In this document: one piece after another, positions 10,240 through 14,292 of the stretch
Numbering within the stretch: position 1 is the stretch's first letter
Layout of the letters: every line of letters begins with the position of its first letter
Assembly: GCA_029838195.1 (NCBI GenBank)
Contig: JALGVJ010000007.1
Span: 32,001-96,000, forward strand
Reading direction: 5' to 3'
DNA length: 64,000 bases
From: Promethearchaeota archaeon
GTDB lineage: Archaea; Asgardarchaeota; Lokiarchaeia; Sigyniarchaeales; SOKP01
Position numbers and translations under genes: made by a program
Notes under the pieces: model-generated
Told to the model about the DNA's origin: nothing
Seen by the model: the letters and a program-made list of their open reading frames with translations, nothing else
The model's database searches: none

Positions 10240-11424
10240 TCATGGATTTTCTTCTTTTAATTTTTCTTCAATCCGCCTTTTCTCTTGTTCCAGTATTTTC
10301 CTTTCCTTATCTTGGAGTTCTTTTTTTTTTAATTCCAACTCTACTTGAGCAAGCATTCTTTCTTTCTCAAGCAATTCTTCTTTATGTCTTAATGCTTTTT
10401 CTTTCTCGTTTAATTCTTTTTCCTCTAATGCTTTTTCCCTTGCTTTGAGTTCAATTTTTTTCTTTTTTAATTCAAGTTCTTTTTTTTTCAATTCTAATTC
10501 TTTTTCTCTTATTTCTTGTTCTCGTCGACTTAATTCTTCAGAATCTAACTCAAGAACTTGATTTTCTTTAATCTCACTTTCTTTTTTATCAGGGCTGACG
10601 ATATCTTTTTTAGCCGCTACTGTATCTTCAGATTTTATTAGAGGTTCTTTGGTTCCTTCCTCTACTTTAATAATTTTTTCCTCTTCATCCTTTTCTTTAA
10701 TAGCGTGAGGGACTTCCTCTTTCCTTCCTACTTTTTCTTCGATTAATTGCTCTTTTTTTGTTTTAGGTTCTTCTTCTAAAATTTTATCAATTTTTTCCAC
10801 GGATACAATTGATTTTAGAATATTATCAATTTTTTCTTTTAAGGCTTCGTTATCGGGATTTTTTTTAAGAAAATTTGTCAATATTTTGGTAATGAGCGAC
10901 GGCGATTTATTTCCTATGATTTTTAATAATTGGATTGTCTTATTAACTACAAAATCTTTTTCATCATTCAATTTCTCAACTATATTCATTAAAAGCTTTT
11001 CATCTTCGATTCTAGTATTTCCACCTTCAATAAAAATTAATAGTTGTAGTAAAGCTTCTCTTACATTGGGATCTTCGGAATTCAATAATTCTTCTGCATA
11101 AGGAAAAAATAAATTTGCCTCATTCTCACACATGGATTTCAATAATAATAAAAAGGAATACCGTAGGAGTGAATCTTTTTTCGATAAGTGATTCAATAAA
11201 TATGGAATGTCTATGATTAAATGTTCTATGAGAAATCGTAAGACCGTCCGTCCTGCGAATTCCTTTAATATGGTTTCAATAACATTTTCCATGCGTTCAA
11301 TATAATCCTCTTCAGTAGCCTGATTGAGATACGCTCCTATTTCTTTTACAGCATCATCGATTCTTCCTTCCTTTACAATTTCTTGAATATTTTTCATTTC
11401 TTTTGCATCTTTATTACTGATCAT
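10240..11424 (-). CDS. HEAT/ARM-repeat protein with acidic linker and C-terminal coiled coil
   Basis: HEAT motifs LLNSEDPNVREA and KLNDEKDFVV; E/K/L heptad tail; GGGAG RBS. Confidence 0.75.
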   Translation of the reverse strand: MISNKDAKEMKNIQEIVKEGRIDDAVKEIGAYLNQATEEDYIERMENVIETILKEFAGRTVLRFLIEHLIIDIPYLLNHLSKKDSLLRYSFLLLLKSMCENEANLFFPYAEELLNSEDPNVREALLQLLIFIEGGNTRIEDEKLLMNIVEKLNDEKDFVVNKTIQLLKIIGNKSPSLITKILTNFLKKNPDNEALKEKIDNILKSIVSVEKIDKILEEEPKTKKEQLIEEKVGRKEEVPHAIKEKDEEEKIIKVEEGTKEPLIKSEDTVAAKKDIVSPDKKESEIKENQVLELDSEELSRREQEIREKELELKKKELELKKKKIELKAREKALEEKELNEKEKALRHKEELLEKERMLAQVELELKKKELQDKERKILEQEKRRIEEKLKEENP

Positions 11425-11461
11425 GAATTAAATCTCCCCTTTCTCATAAATTTTAAAAATT

Positions 11462-12485
11462 TTATTTTTTTTCCACTAAATAATCTTCTAAATTTACAAC
11501 ATAATAATCTTGGTAAATTCTGTTCACAAAATCAAATATTGTACGTAAATCTCTAAATTTAATGGGTACCCTCCTTTTATTATTATCATAACTAGGAGAT
11601 GTGGGTATGATATTTAATTTTATCTGTAAATTATTATTTTGATCATGAATTAAATTAATCTCTTCACAAATAAAAGATAATTTCTCGATATCATTCGCAA
11701 ACTCTCCCAAAAAATACTGATCATATTTCGAATTTTCTTCAAACAAACCATTATTCGACACCTTTACTAATATCTCACGAGGTATTTTCGTAATTAATTC
11801 CACGCGCTCATCAGGAATTAATCGTAATAAAACATCGGGATAATGAACAGAACAATAAAAATATATAAGCCCATGAAGTAATTCTAAGGAATAGATGACT
11901 TCTCGATTGGCATTGCATAATGCATAATTTTTATTCAAGAATAAAACATGAATACGATCTTCAAAAAAGAAAATTAAATAATTTTTTTCTTCTGTTAGGT
12001 AGTATTTAAAATTCTCTTTCTCAACATGAATTCTATGGTCAAATATTTCAAAAGCATAGTCCCATTGTTTAAAAGCAATAAATTTATTTAATTTTCTATA
12101 ATCTCCGTGAAAGAATACGTCAAAAAAATCAACTATGTATAAATACGTGTCATGAGGGAAATATATAACGGTTTTACCTCTAAATTGCCTTTCAATAATG
12201 CCCTTCTGGATCTTATAACAAAATTTTGGGATATCCTCTATTTTTAAACCACTCTTGATGCGCAAATTGAGTAAAAAGCGTCTTGTACAAGAGGGTGTAA
12301 GAGTGCAAGCAATTTTAGACATGGAGTTAATAATCACATGAAGCATGTGCCATTCTATCTATTTGGCACTCTTCGAAACACAACTTGTCAATTCGCTTTA
12401 TCAATAATTCCAACAGCTCAGAATTATACTTCTCATTATAAGAAGTTTCTAAAAAATTTAACAAGTGGTTTGGTTCCAGCGGCAT
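11462..12485 (-). CDS. Intron-split hypothetical Cys-cluster protein, join(12355..12485, 11462..12314), 327 aa predicted after splicing
   Basis: Exon 1 (ATG 12485) reads MPLEPNHLLN...LCFEECQIDR, and exon 2 continues IACTLTPSCTRRF in the +1 frame. Removing 40 nt gives 131+853=984 nt open. The ORF-track start (12346) lies inside the insertion. Confidence 0.8.
12315..12354 (-). other. Putative bulge-helix-bulge (EndA-type) intron, 40 nt, in a protein-coding gene
   Basis: Central 4-bp helix AGAU/GUCU; 3-nt bulges AGA and AAA on opposite strands; intron-side helix AUGG/CCAU; exon-side helices AAU/AUU and AAGAGUGC/GCACUCUU; internal hairpin CACAUG-CUU-CAUGUG. Confidence 0.78.
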
Positions 12486-12810
12486 GATAGAGGATTTTAA
12501 ATGTAATTAAGATTATAATTTATAATCTATTTCATGATAATTTATTGAATAATAATTAATCTATTTTATGATAGGAAATCCTTTATCAAAAAATTTTAAT
12601 AACATCGCCCCATTCCGTTTTCTTGCTTATTTCAATCCTATATTGTTCCAATTAACGGGGACTCTAATTAAATGCATTATAAAACAAGTTAAATTATTTC
12701 AAATCTCCGATCTCCAACATTTTGAATTCAAATACTTATATTTTTTTACTTTTTTAACTTTTATTAAGTAAAAAGAGTCAAATTCGAAAAAAGCATAAAT
12801 TAAAGGGGTC

Positions 12811-14292
12811 ATGCTGAGACAAGTTCACGTGTTTCATGAAGGGAAGCATCTATTTACCCATAGTCTTGCTTTAGGTTTTGGAAAAGAAGAATTGGATAAA
12901 GTAAAAGAAGTAATTGACGAATATATCTCTTACCCAATTCCAGGGAAAACACATCATCGACCTCTTTCTAACTACCAGATTTTTCACCAAGGAAAAGGAA
13001 ATATATATTTTTTATTTGTTGCGGATTTAATTGACTCTATTAATTACATGGAAAAATTAGTTAATAGAACTTTAGAAAAGTTTTCGGAACTCTTTTCGGA
13101 TCCCTTAGAAATTCAACAACAATTAGAAAAAAGGGAAAAATTTATCGCCTTCCTTAATGATCTACAGAAAGAAATGCATTCTAAAATTGCTATAGCAGGA
13201 CCGATTAAATCCGGCAAAACCACTCTCTATAATCTTCTGAAGAGTGGAGAAGAAAGAACACTCATGAATTTTGCAAAGATATCTAATTTTGTAATTAGTA
13301 ATTTAACCTTTGATTTTTGGGATTTTCAACTGCAAGATAATTTTTCATTGCTATGGTCAAAATTTTTAAGCGGCTCAGACCTTATCATTTTATTAATTGA
13401 TGTATCTAATTATAATCTCAAAATTATCAATCATTTTTTGAGTTTTCAAAAAAAAGAAGCTCGATTTTCAAAATTCCTTTTCCTTGCCAACAAGATTGAT
13501 TTAATCAAGAACGTAGAAATCGAATTAGAAAAAATTAAAAAAGATTTAAAAATAAAGGAGTTGATATCCATATCTCTTTCTGAAAACGGCGCAATAAAAA
13601 AAGTCACGACCGCTATCCGAAATACTTTAGGATTAAAAGAAGTGCTTCCGGAGAATTTCGAAACTCTCATGAAAGAAGCTGAGCAATTAGAAAAGGAGCA
13701 TAAATTTGTCTCTGCCATAGCTAAATATAAAAATCTCATCCAAATTTGTAATAGAGTACAAGATTTCTCATATATTAATAACTTTAGGCAAAAAGTAGAA
13801 GAATTAACTGAAAAATTACGGCAAACCGTCGAAAAGAAAAAAGAACAAGAAAAAAAAATTAAATTTGAAGTCCCCGAGCAAATACAATTTAAATATAGAG
13901 TTAAAACAAAATCTCTGCCTCAATCTACTCCTAAAGCGGCAACGACGCTTCAAGAAAAAACGCAACAATCCCCACCGCCATCTAAATTTAAATCCAAATT
14001 AAAACCTTCAGATTTCATTATCGATCTCGAGCCTTTAAGAAAAGACGAAATGATTAAAAAGAAGATAATAGAAACTTCTCATAAAAAAATTGTCCCTGTA
14101 AAGCCGGAGGACTTAAAAAGTGAGGAAGATTATCCAAAAGCACTGCAAAGAATGATATCAAATAGAGGCAGTTATTTAAGTTTAAATTTAACTAAACAAT
14201 ATTTAGAGGAAGTTAAAGAAATCCTCGGCAGGCCCCTGACATTTGAGGACTTGCTAAATTTAGCAGATCAATTCGTTCAGAAGGATCAATAA
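12811..14292 (+). CDS. Longin-like domain + Ras-superfamily (Arf/Rab-like) GTPase + helical/low-complexity C-terminus
   Basis: P-loop GPIKSGKTT, degenerate G3 WDFQ, G4 NKID. N-terminal ~120 aa have a longin-like pattern. Confidence 0.8.
   Translation: MLRQVHVFHEGKHLFTHSLALGFGKEELDKVKEVIDEYISYPIPGKTHHRPLSNYQIFHQGKGNIYFLFVADLIDSINYMEKLVNRTLEKFSELFSDPLEIQQQLEKREKFIAFLNDLQKEMHSKIAIAGPIKSGKTTLYNLLKSGEERTLMNFAKISNFVISNLTFDFWDFQLQDNFSLLWSKFLSGSDLIILLIDVSNYNLKIINHFLSFQKKEARFSKFLFLANKIDLIKNVEIELEKIKKDLKIKELISISLSENGAIKKVTTAIRNTLGLKEVLPENFETLMKEAEQLEKEHKFVSAIAKYKNLIQICNRVQDFSYINNFRQKVEELTEKLRQTVEKKKEQEKKIKFEVPEQIQFKYRVKTKSLPQSTPKAATTLQEKTQQSPPPSKFKSKLKPSDFIIDLEPLRKDEMIKKKIIETSHKKIVPVKPEDLKSEEDYPKALQRMISNRGSYLSLNLTKQYLEEVKEILGRPLTFEDLLNLADQFVQKDQ

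What the first reader, a model, noticed from the sequence alone, without database searches (positions are those of the whole stretch)
12299..12373. Canonical bulge-helix-bulge intron inside a protein-coding gene of a probable Asgard archaeon
Seen (minus strand RNA): ...AAGAGUGC CA AAU AGAU AG^A AUGG CACAUG CUU CAUGUG AUUAUUAACU CCAU GUCU AA^A AUU GCUU GCACUCUU... AGAU pairs with GUCU (4 bp). Each strand then carries a 3-nt purine bulge (AGA, AAA), flanked by AUGG/CCAU on the intron side and AAU/AUU plus an 8-bp helix on the exon side. Established: archaeal splicing endonuclease EndA cuts after the second nucleotide of each bulge and RtcB ligates. Applying that rule removes exactly 40 nt (12315-12354) and joins GAU AG|A AUU GCU UGC (D-R-I-A-C). 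This deletes an in-frame UAA and corrects a +1 frameshift, giving one 327-aa ORF. Structure and frame repair are independent lines of evidence that agree to the nucleotide. BHB introns are well known in tRNA/rRNA; in mRNA the classic case is crenarchaeal cbf5. Inference: mRNA splicing by the tRNA machinery in a non-cbf5 gene of the lineage closest to eukaryotes, missed by gene callers. I cannot check whether it has already been published.
Basis: partly seen in the sequence, partly recalled or inferred. Interest (0 to 1): 0.95.

Follow-up and report, generated by a model that had tools for sequence, protein, structure and literature searches.

The report
tRNA-type intron in Asgard protein gene
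A 40-base insert shaped exactly like an archaeal tRNA intron interrupts a conserved, Asgard-specific protein gene, and comparison with relatives indicates it has to be cut out of the mRNA by the tRNA-splicing enzymes, something the papers I could search document for only one other archaeal coding sequence (cbf5).

Summary
On the minus strand, a 40-nt insert (12354-12315) separates a 131-nt first exon (12485-12355) from the rest of the gene (12314-11462). It folds as a canonical helix-bulge-helix-bulge-helix motif. Cutting after the second base of each 3-nt bulge gives a 327-aa ORF reading ...CFEECQIDR|IACTLTP.... More than 100 homologues, including 19 distinct intronless ones from related Asgard genomes, read this junction without interruption.

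Five further assemblies carry an insert in the same Arg codon. The inserts are 40, 39, 36, 35 and 35 nt long, and each restores the protein when the same cutting rule is applied. The 4-bp central helix pairs in all six sequences, with A-U to C-G double changes. Three of the four pairs of the intron-side helix show compensatory changes. Exon 1 is under purifying selection (7 synonymous changes to 1 non-synonymous). The genome encodes alpha- and beta-like EndA subunits and RtcB.

No RNA data could be obtained, so splicing is inferred and not observed. The carriers sit among intronless relatives, which implies gain followed by loss, as for cbf5. The host protein has no known family or fold.

This scan had already noted similar mRNA introns elsewhere in the same genome; I partly re-checked one of them (pyrG). 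The papers I could search report none in Asgard archaea.

The parts
12355..12485 (-). Exon 1 of the host gene: ATG at 12485, 43 codons (MPLEPN...CFEECQID) plus the first two bases (AG) of the split Arg codon
   Evidence: It aligns with the N-termini of intronless homologues. dN/dS is 0.02 against the L001 orthologue.
12315..12354 (-). The 40-nt BHB intron. It holds the in-frame UAA (12329-12327) and two AUGs (12346-12344, 12322-12320) that gene callers take as false starts
   Evidence: It is unique in the genome by blastn.
11462..12314 (-). Exon 2: the third base of the Arg codon, 283 codons (IACTLTPSC...) and the stop
12357..12360 (-). 5' strand of the central 4-bp helix (AGAU, exonic); pairs with 12320-12317
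   Evidence: 100% paired in 6 sequences, with A-U replaced by C-G in L038 and L050
12354..12356 (-). 5' bulge AGA; the predicted cut is between G12355 and A12354
   Evidence: the frame and homology fix the junction
12350..12353 (-). Intron-side helix h', 5' strand (AUGG); pairs with 12324-12321 (CCAU)
   Evidence: 3 of 4 pairs show changes on both sides
12335..12349 (-). Inner hairpin of the intron (CACAUG-CUU-CAUGUG), stacked on h'
   Evidence: two pairs with compensatory changes among four sequences. L050 has a different hairpin at the same place.
12321..12324 (-). Intron-side helix h', 3' strand (CCAU)
12317..12320 (-). 3' strand of the central helix (GUCU, intronic)
12314..12316 (-). 3' bulge AAA; the predicted cut is between A12315 and A12314
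12361..12373 (-). Exon-side pairing, 5' strand: the distal 8 nt AAGAGUGC (12373-12366), an unpaired CA, and proximal AAU (12363-12361)
   Evidence: the distal helix is 8/8 with identical codons in four carrier lineages, against a mean of 5.2/8 in 19 intronless homologues
12299..12313 (-). Exon-side pairing, 3' strand: proximal AUU (12313-12311), an unpaired GCUU, and distal GCACUCUU (12306-12299)

Best explanation
The 40 nt at 12354-12315 (minus strand) are an archaeal bulge-helix-bulge intron inside the coding sequence of a conserved Asgard-specific protein. The gene is transcribed as one pre-mRNA. The exon and intron sequences around the insert fold into a canonical hBHBh' motif. The splicing endonuclease of this genome (an alpha-like and a beta-like EndA subunit) cuts after the second nucleotide of each 3-nt bulge. 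RtcB then joins the exons, and probably also circularises the intron. This makes the Arg codon AG|A and an mRNA for a 327-aa protein whose invariant Cys motif, C-x3-C-x6-C-x5-C, is assembled across the junction. Unspliced RNA can give only a 52-aa peptide, or an N-terminally truncated protein. What is shown: the structure, its exact fit with the protein junction, its conservation with compensatory changes in five length variants, selection on both exons, and the presence of the enzymes. What is inferred: that cleavage and ligation really happen in the cell. Among the homologues compared, the five carriers with a full-length gene lie in one 22-member subclade. The patchy presence there points to one old gain with several precise losses, or to repeated gain.
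For: (1) Removing exactly 12354-12315 gives ...CFEECQIDR-IACTLTPSC..., 327 aa. More than 100 homologues of 316-328 aa read this junction without interruption, as do 19 distinct intronless homologues examined at the DNA level, 18 from related genomes of the same family plus L045. (2) The motif is canonical: 3-nt bulges on opposite strands, a 4-bp central helix, a 4-bp h', and a 3-bp h plus an 8-bp distal exon helix. The background rate of such a motif is 5e-5 per position and length. (3) Five other assemblies carry an insert in the same codon: L001/L002 40 nt, L003 39 nt (in frame, with TAG), L038 36 nt (in frame, with TAA), L049 35 nt, L050 35 nt. In each, the same cutting rule restores DR-I-x-C. 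(4) Covariation: the core structure is paired in 93.9% of cells, against 22-59% when partners are slid. The central helix is 100% paired, with A-U changed to C-G twice. Three of four h' pairs changed on both sides. Two further compensatory pairs lie in the inner hairpin. The alternative register offered by RNAalifold is broken in L038, whereas the BHB register is rescued there. (5) Exon 1 is not a relic: 7 synonymous against 1 non-synonymous difference between window and L001 (dN/dS 0.02; exon 2 0.13), and there is no stop or frameshift in any carrier. (6) The exon flanks that form the distal helix use identical codons in four carrier lineages whose synonymous sites are otherwise saturated. 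Intronless homologues vary there: mean 5.2 of 8 pairs, none 8/8. (7) The genome has an EndA with the Tyr/His/Lys catalytic pattern (C1), a His-less beta-like paralogue (C8) and RtcB (C23). Asgard EndAs are reported as (alpha-beta)2 with the loop that widens specificity (PMC5829648). (8) pyrG of the same genome is likewise split into two frames by a short insert, with an exon-exon stem around it and the conserved motif restored once it is removed. This suggests that mRNA splicing of this kind operates in this organism.
Against: The proximal exon helix h is short (2-3 bp) and its outermost pair is unpaired in half of the sequences. The distal exon helix is only 5/8 in L050. The overall fold is only moderately more stable than shuffles (z -2.5). 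RNAfold and RNAalifold both prefer slightly different registers in the A/AGA-rich core. Every variant keeps an AUG in frame with exon 2 at the 3' end of the insert, so a two-polypeptide reading is not formally excluded. My own genome-wide BHB-plus-ORF scan could not separate signal from noise, so I did not measure how common such introns are.
Confidence: 0.85

Rival explanations
1. It is a split gene. The insert supplies a stop for a short N-terminal polypeptide (52 aa here) and a new AUG (12322-12320, MSKIAC...) for a 286-aa C-terminal polypeptide. The two are made separately and may associate. The RNA hairpin serves translation coupling or stability, not splicing.
For: All five variants have a stop in the exon-1 frame, inside or just after the insert. 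Four of the five keep the AUG formed by the last two bases of h' and the first base of the central helix (AU|G), in frame with exon 2; L050 has AUAUCG there instead. Gene callers output exactly these two ORFs.
Against: This reading does not predict 3-nt bulges spaced by exactly 4 bp. It also does not predict that the EndA rule restores the ancestral Arg codon in variants of 40, 39, 36 and 35 nt. The AUG is explained by pairing constraints, and L050 lacks it: its caller starts the downstream ORF about 40 nt further on. No conserved Shine-Dalgarno-like sequence precedes the AUG. The split would divide an invariant four-Cys motif two and two. Exon codon choice is frozen where it forms the exon-exon helix.
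Confidence: 0.06
2. It is translational recoding: ribosomes bypass or hop over the 40 nt, as in phage T4 gene 60, or frameshift, so no RNA processing is needed.
For: A structured insert with a stop codon between two frames of one gene is the general look of a bypass element. cbf5 introns were once confused with frameshifting (PMC2738675).
Against: There are no matching take-off and landing codons: GAU/AGA before the insert, UCU/AAA/AUU at its end. The stop is 9 codons after the junction in the window, not adjacent to it. Two variants are in frame and three are not, which no single recoding rule explains, whereas the BHB rule explains all of them. The covariation follows the BHB geometry.
Confidence: 0.03
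3. It is a decaying or tolerated pseudogene: a small insertion killed the gene, or only the C-terminal part still works, and the BHB-like fold is fortuitous.
For: The host protein is of unknown function and might be dispensable. No expression data are available.
Against: Both exons are intact and under purifying selection in six assemblies that span saturated synonymous divergence. There are compensatory changes in the helices. The chance of the motif landing at the required place is about 1.5e-4. The gene is found in 38 of 41 related genomes.
Confidence: 0.02
4. It is an assembly or sequencing artefact, or a repeat or MITE insertion.
For: The genome is a MAG with 7.9% estimated contamination.
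Against: The insert is present in independent assemblies from NCBI, ENA, JGI and Logan. It has no other copy in the genome.
Confidence: 0.01

Closest known systems
BHB intron in the cbf5 (pseudouridine synthase) pre-mRNA of Crenarchaeota (Watanabe 2002; Yoshinari 2006; Yokobori 2009, PMC2738675)
   Same: Both are short inserts inside a coding sequence (cbf5 16-44 bp; here 35-40 nt) that fold as a BHB. Some variants are in frame and others shift the frame. Both interrupt a functionally critical motif. The host has a hetero-oligomeric EndA. Distribution is patchy, indicating gain and loss. Gene callers miss both.
   Different: The host gene is different: an Asgard-specific protein with no Pfam family, not cbf5. 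The phylum is different: Asgard, not Crenarchaeota. Splicing is demonstrated for cbf5 and only inferred here. Here the motif is the strict hBHBh' form with a long distal exon-exon helix.
BHB intron in the 5' UTR of HVO_1309 mRNA, Haloferax volcanii (PMC7714728)
   Same: An mRNA that is a substrate of the tRNA splicing endonuclease, confirmed in vivo and in vitro for Haloferax.
   Different: That intron lies in the untranslated leader and does not rebuild a reading frame. This one is inside the coding sequence, and translation of the full protein depends on its removal.
Canonical and non-canonical tRNA introns and rRNA processing stems of Archaea (EndA/RtcB substrates), including the heavily interrupted tRNA genes of Asgard archaea (bioRxiv 10.64898/2026.10.13.758758)
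   Same: The recognition motif, the predicted enzymes and the cut positions are the same. The genome is intron-rich: 8 of the 16 tRNA genes that ARAGORN can recognise carry introns.
   Different: The substrate is a protein-coding mRNA. That preprint deals with tRNA genes and says nothing about mRNA.
Unconventional cytoplasmic splicing of HAC1/XBP1 mRNA in eukaryotes (IRE1 cut, tRNA ligase/RtcB joining)
   Same: A short intron is removed from an mRNA by an endonuclease that recognises RNA structure, the exons are joined by a tRNA ligase, and the frame changes (my own knowledge; RtcB/XBP1 is mentioned in PMC8718801).
   Different: The endonuclease is IRE1, not EndA/TSEN. The recognition motif is a pair of stem-loops, not a BHB. 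There is no evidence here of regulated splicing.

Membership tests
Archaeal BHB (splicing-endonuclease) intron | Two 3-nt bulges on opposite strands, separated by a 4-bp helix | tested here: met
   AGAU/GUCU with bulges AGA and AAA. The central helix is 100% paired in 6 sequences. The strict-motif scanner hits this site.
Archaeal BHB (splicing-endonuclease) intron | Flanking helices on the exon side (h) and the intron side (h'), i.e. hBHBh' | tested here: met
   h' is 4-5 bp and 95.8% paired. h is 2-3 bp (83% paired) and is backed by an 8-bp distal exon helix.
Archaeal BHB (splicing-endonuclease) intron | Cutting after the second nucleotide of each bulge and joining the ends gives the functional mature RNA | tested here: met
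   The rule yields the junction DR-I-x-C, which intronless homologues read without interruption, in all five length variants.
Archaeal BHB (splicing-endonuclease) intron | The structure is maintained by compensatory substitutions | tested here: met
   4 core pairs (8 cells) changed on both sides. The covariation score is 0.267, against a shuffled mean of 0.140 (0 of 500 shuffles reach it) and 0.12 or less for slid partners.
Archaeal BHB (splicing-endonuclease) intron | The host encodes the splicing endonuclease EndA and the RNA ligase RtcB | tested here: met
   PF01974 hits on C1 (100.7 bits), C8 (66.4 bits) and C53; PF01139 on C23 (553 bits).
Archaeal BHB (splicing-endonuclease) intron | Excision observed in RNA (spliced junction, circular intron) or in vitro cleavage | not testable with these tools
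cbf5 pre-mRNA intron of Crenarchaeota | The host gene is cbf5 (TruB-family pseudouridine synthase) | tested here: not met
   The host protein has no Pfam family, and its homologues are all hypothetical Asgard proteins.
cbf5 pre-mRNA intron of Crenarchaeota | A short BHB insert (16-44 bp) within the coding sequence | tested here: met
   35-40 nt, compared with the range given in PMC2738675.
Programmed translational bypass (T4 gene 60 type) | Matching take-off and landing codons, with a stop directly after the take-off codon | tested here: not met
   No matching codons. The stop is 9 codons downstream in the window, and its position varies among the variants.
Self-splicing group I / group II introns | A ribozyme core of hundreds of nucleotides | tested here: not met
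   The insert is 35-40 nt, and no Rfam family matches anywhere in the window.

The most novel reading that the evidence does not exclude
This intron is one member of a population of tRNA-type mini-introns that have colonised many ordinary protein genes in this Asgard family, pyrG among them. They are gained, lost or passed between lineages at fixed sites. Routine mRNA splicing by EndA/RtcB would then be part of gene expression in close archaeal relatives of eukaryotes, and could act as an on/off control, since unspliced RNA here cannot make the four-Cys protein.
Probability: 0.35. Interest if true: 0.92.

Novelty: new member of a known kind. Interest (0 to 1): 0.78.

Why it matters
In the papers I could search, enzymatic (tRNA-type) splicing of an archaeal coding sequence is documented for a single gene, cbf5, in Crenarchaeota. 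A 5'-UTR case in Haloferax is the only other mRNA substrate. A well-supported second host gene, in Asgard archaea, would show that the EndA/RtcB machinery is used on mRNAs outside that one lineage and gene. It also affects annotation: standard gene callers split this gene into a 52-aa and a 286-aa ORF in every carrier genome, so such genes are systematically mis-annotated. The six carrier sequences (five length variants) and their close intronless relatives (up to 83% protein identity) give a concrete system for studying how BHB introns are gained and lost in protein genes. They also give a clean substrate for testing Asgard EndA specificity. Any link to the origin of eukaryotic introns is indirect, because this is not spliceosomal splicing.

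Tried and rejected

Genome-wide scan: I combined a strict hBHBh' motif (60,387 hits) with an ORF-fusion filter. It gave 1,435 candidates, against 1,405-1,473 for eight deliberately wrong cut registers. The filter therefore has no discriminating power, and I draw no conclusion from it about how many such introns the genome holds.

DNA pattern scans for more carriers: metagenome contigs gave 0 hits with the specific pattern, and 5 chance hits in unrelated genes with a looser one. Genome contigs gave back only the already known G001 contig.

Function of the host protein: there was no Pfam hit and no informative ESM Atlas neighbour. An AlphaFold2 model (pLDDT 79.7) had no Foldseek PDB match at E<=0.001, no Atlas match with both TM scores above 0.33, and a best VIA-align Z of only 6.0 on a generic alpha/beta subdomain. 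The function stays unknown.

AU test of whether all carriers can form one clade: it did not finish in the time allowed. I rely instead on the identities (L050 is 80-83% identical to intronless proteins) and on the tree.

A suggestion that exon 1 plus the intron moved by recombination between lineages: exon 1 of the window resembles the P0088 group more than it resembles its own sister P0006. This rests on 43 residues with saturated synonymous sites, so I left it as unresolved.

In my first reading of L003 I took the proximal exon helix change AAU/AUU to AGU/AUC as compensatory. The pair count showed it is G-U plus a mismatch.

Full report
**Observation.** Two ORFs meet there.
- The upstream ORF is 12485-12327, 52 aa, and ends ...CFEECQIDRMAHASCDY*.
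- The downstream ORF is 12346-11462, 294 aa, in the +1 frame.
- Removing 12354-12315 (40 nt) joins GAT AG to A ATT GCT TGC. This gives ...CQIDR-IACTLTPSC... and a 327-aa product.

The insert folds as a helix-bulge-helix-bulge-helix motif:
- central helix AGAU/GUCU;
- 3-nt bulges AGA and AAA on opposite strands;
- intron-side helix AUGG/CCAU, stacked on a 6-bp hairpin;
- exon-side helix AAU/AUU, followed by an 8-bp helix between the codons for E-E-C and C-T-L.

The orientation is that of a pre-tRNA with a canonical 37/38 intron. The 5' bulge faces the intron helix and the 3' bulge faces the exon helix (my own knowledge of the motif). RNAfold recovers the bulges but extends the central helix by one pair, using the run of four A's. 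Only the canonical 4-bp spacing gives the open frame.

In this genome a strict motif of this kind occurs at 5e-5 per position and length. The expected chance of one sitting at the homology-defined junction is therefore about 1.5e-4.

**Homology test.** The exon-2 protein has 207 relatives, all in Asgard metagenome bins (Promethearchaeota, Lokiarchaeia, Thor- and Hodarchaeota labels).
- Nearly all are 316-328 aa and begin MPL....
- They read ...LCFEECQIDRI[AQS]CTLTP.C.RRF... without interruption. That is exactly the predicted spliced sequence.
- In 41 related genomes the gene is found in 38. At the DNA level, 18 distinct intronless homologues from other genera of the family, plus the sister L045, have 9 nt between the Asp codon and the Cys codon. 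Only the window's genome and the other species of its genus have about 48-49 nt there.
- Gene callers report a 286-aa protein starting MSKIAC, from an AUG inside the insert, and in one case also the 52-aa ORF.

**More carriers.** I looked for proteins called with the tell-tale MSKI start, and for orphan exon-1 ORFs. This gave six carrier sequences with five different inserts, all in the same Arg codon.

| Source | Insert | Note |
|---|---|---|
| window | 40 nt | frame shifted |
| L001/L002 | 40 nt | same insert; host protein 87% identical |
| L003 = G001 | 39 nt | in frame, with TAG |
| L038 | 36 nt | in frame, with TAA |
| L049 | 35 nt | contig is only 613 nt |
| L050 | 35 nt | different interior hairpin; bulge AGG |

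Applying the same cut rule gives 327, 327, 327, 320 and 318 aa for the five carriers with a full-length gene; L049's contig ends after 87 aa. Every product has the DR-I-x-C junction. An insert that varies in length and phase yet always resolves under one structural rule is what a BHB intron predicts. None of the rival explanations predicts it.

**Covariation and selection.**
- On the six-sequence alignment the core structure is paired in 93.9% of cells. With partners slid by 1-3 columns the figure is 22-59%.
- The central helix is 100% paired, with A-U replaced by C-G in two lineages and U-G by U-A in one.
- Three of the four h' pairs changed on both sides. The inner hairpin adds two more compensatory pairs among the four sequences that share it.
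- RNAalifold proposes a competing register (UAGA/UCUA). This register is broken in L038 exactly where the BHB register shows a compensatory change.
- Exon 1 differs between the window and L001 by 7 synonymous and 1 non-synonymous substitution (dN/dS 0.02; exon 2 0.13). It stays open in every carrier, although synonymous sites are saturated between the more distant ones.
- The exon codons that form the distal helix are identical (GAAGAGTGC / TGCACTCTT) in four carrier lineages. In 19 intronless homologues they vary freely: 4-7 of 8 pairs, mean 5.2. L050 is an exception at 5/8, so the distal helix helps but is not indispensable.

**Machinery.** The genome has three hits to the EndA catalytic domain.
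- A 202-aa protein on C1 has the Tyr/His/Lys pattern.
- A 199-aa paralogue on C8 lacks the His. This fits a structural beta subunit; I infer that from the sequence alone.
- A 106-aa near-copy of the C8 gene lies on C53.

RtcB is present on C23. Published analysis assigns Asgard archaea an (alpha-beta)2 EndA with the loop linked to broad substrate range (PMC5829648). The genome is rich in tRNA introns: 8 of the 16 tRNA genes that ARAGORN can recognise carry one.

**Evolution.** In a tree built with the spliced proteins, the five full-length carriers fall in one 22-member clade (SH-aLRT 96) together with 17 intronless proteins. At least 3-4 changes of state are needed.
- The window, L001 and L003 form a clade whose sister, P0006/L045, is intronless.
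- L050 is 80-83% identical to intronless proteins.
- One old gain followed by precise losses fits this, and so does repeated gain or transfer. The same pattern was described for cbf5 (PMC2738675).

**Host gene.** The function is unknown. There is no Pfam family. Invariant residues include Cys 36, 40, 47, 53 and 76 (P0006 numbering). An AlphaFold2 model with pLDDT 79.7 has no convincing structural neighbour. The gene is flanked divergently by an Arf-family GTPase (12811-14292, +) and followed by a HEAT-repeat protein (11424-10240, -). This arrangement is kept in L001, L003 and L045.

**What is not shown.** Cleavage and ligation are therefore inferred. The main residual rival is a split gene translated as two polypeptides, because four of the five variants keep an in-frame AUG at the 3' end of the insert. 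That AUG is explained by pairing, and it is absent in L050. It also has no conserved ribosome-binding sequence, and the split would cut a four-Cys motif in half.

**Literature and earlier notes.**
- Searches of PMC and bioRxiv found only the cbf5 coding-sequence intron and the HVO_1309 5'-UTR intron as archaeal mRNA substrates of EndA.
- A 2026 preprint on Asgard tRNA introns does not mention mRNA.
- This scan had already noted BHB-like inserts in other genes of the same genome. These are AI notes, not evidence.
- I re-checked one of them in part.

**Verdict.** This is a real, conserved, canonical BHB intron in a new host gene and a new phylum. It is a new member of the kind so far represented by cbf5. 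Confidence that it is spliced by EndA/RtcB is about 0.85.

Noticed in passing
window 10240-14292 (also L001, L003, L045): The host gene sits in a conserved three-gene arrangement: an Arf-family small GTPase with a long C-terminal extension (12811-14292, +), the host gene, and a HEAT-repeat protein with a Lys/Glu-rich tail (11424-10240, -). The same order is found in four lineages. This may hint at a shared function.
   Followed up: partly
G000 C56:72204-73077 (L047 1660-1810): The Pfam match to pyrG (CTP synthase) is split into two reading frames by a short insert. The insert is flanked by a UUUCG/CGAAA exon-exon stem, and removing about 31 nt restores the conserved D-x-D-x-G-x-Y-E-R-F motif. 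The central helix has only 3 of 4 pairs, so my strict scanner missed it.
   Followed up: partly
G000 C69:44376-44618 (L048): The only TFIIE-alpha/TFE match in the genome has a TGA inside the match. I did not examine it.
   Followed up: no
G000 C53:22042-22209 (L036) versus C8:28388-28642 (L035): A 106-aa ORF on C53 is a near-copy of the middle of the beta-like EndA gene on C8. It could be a duplicated fragment, a second strain in the bin (contamination is estimated at 7.9%), or a truncated paralogue.
   Followed up: no
whole genome G000: ARAGORN recognises only 16 tRNA genes in a genome that is 96.6% complete, and half of them carry introns, two of which are predicted at over 1 kb. Most tRNA genes are probably too interrupted to be detected. 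This fits the 2026 preprint on Asgard tRNA genes.
   Followed up: no
exon 1, window 12355-12485, versus P0088/P0075/P0078 and P0006: Exon 1 of the window is 73-77% identical to the P0088 group, which contains the carriers L038 and L050, but only 61% identical to its exon-2 sister P0006. For exon 2 the ranking is reversed (50% against 59%). This could reflect an old recombination that moved exon 1 plus the intron, or just fast divergence of the P0006 N-terminus.
   Followed up: partly
window 12354-12363 and 12314-12320: The repeated AGAUAGA and the run of four A's allow two alternative pairings: a 5-bp central helix, or UAGA/UCUA with a single bulged G. These compete with the BHB register in energy-based folding. 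They might matter for the kinetics or regulation of cleavage.
   Followed up: partly
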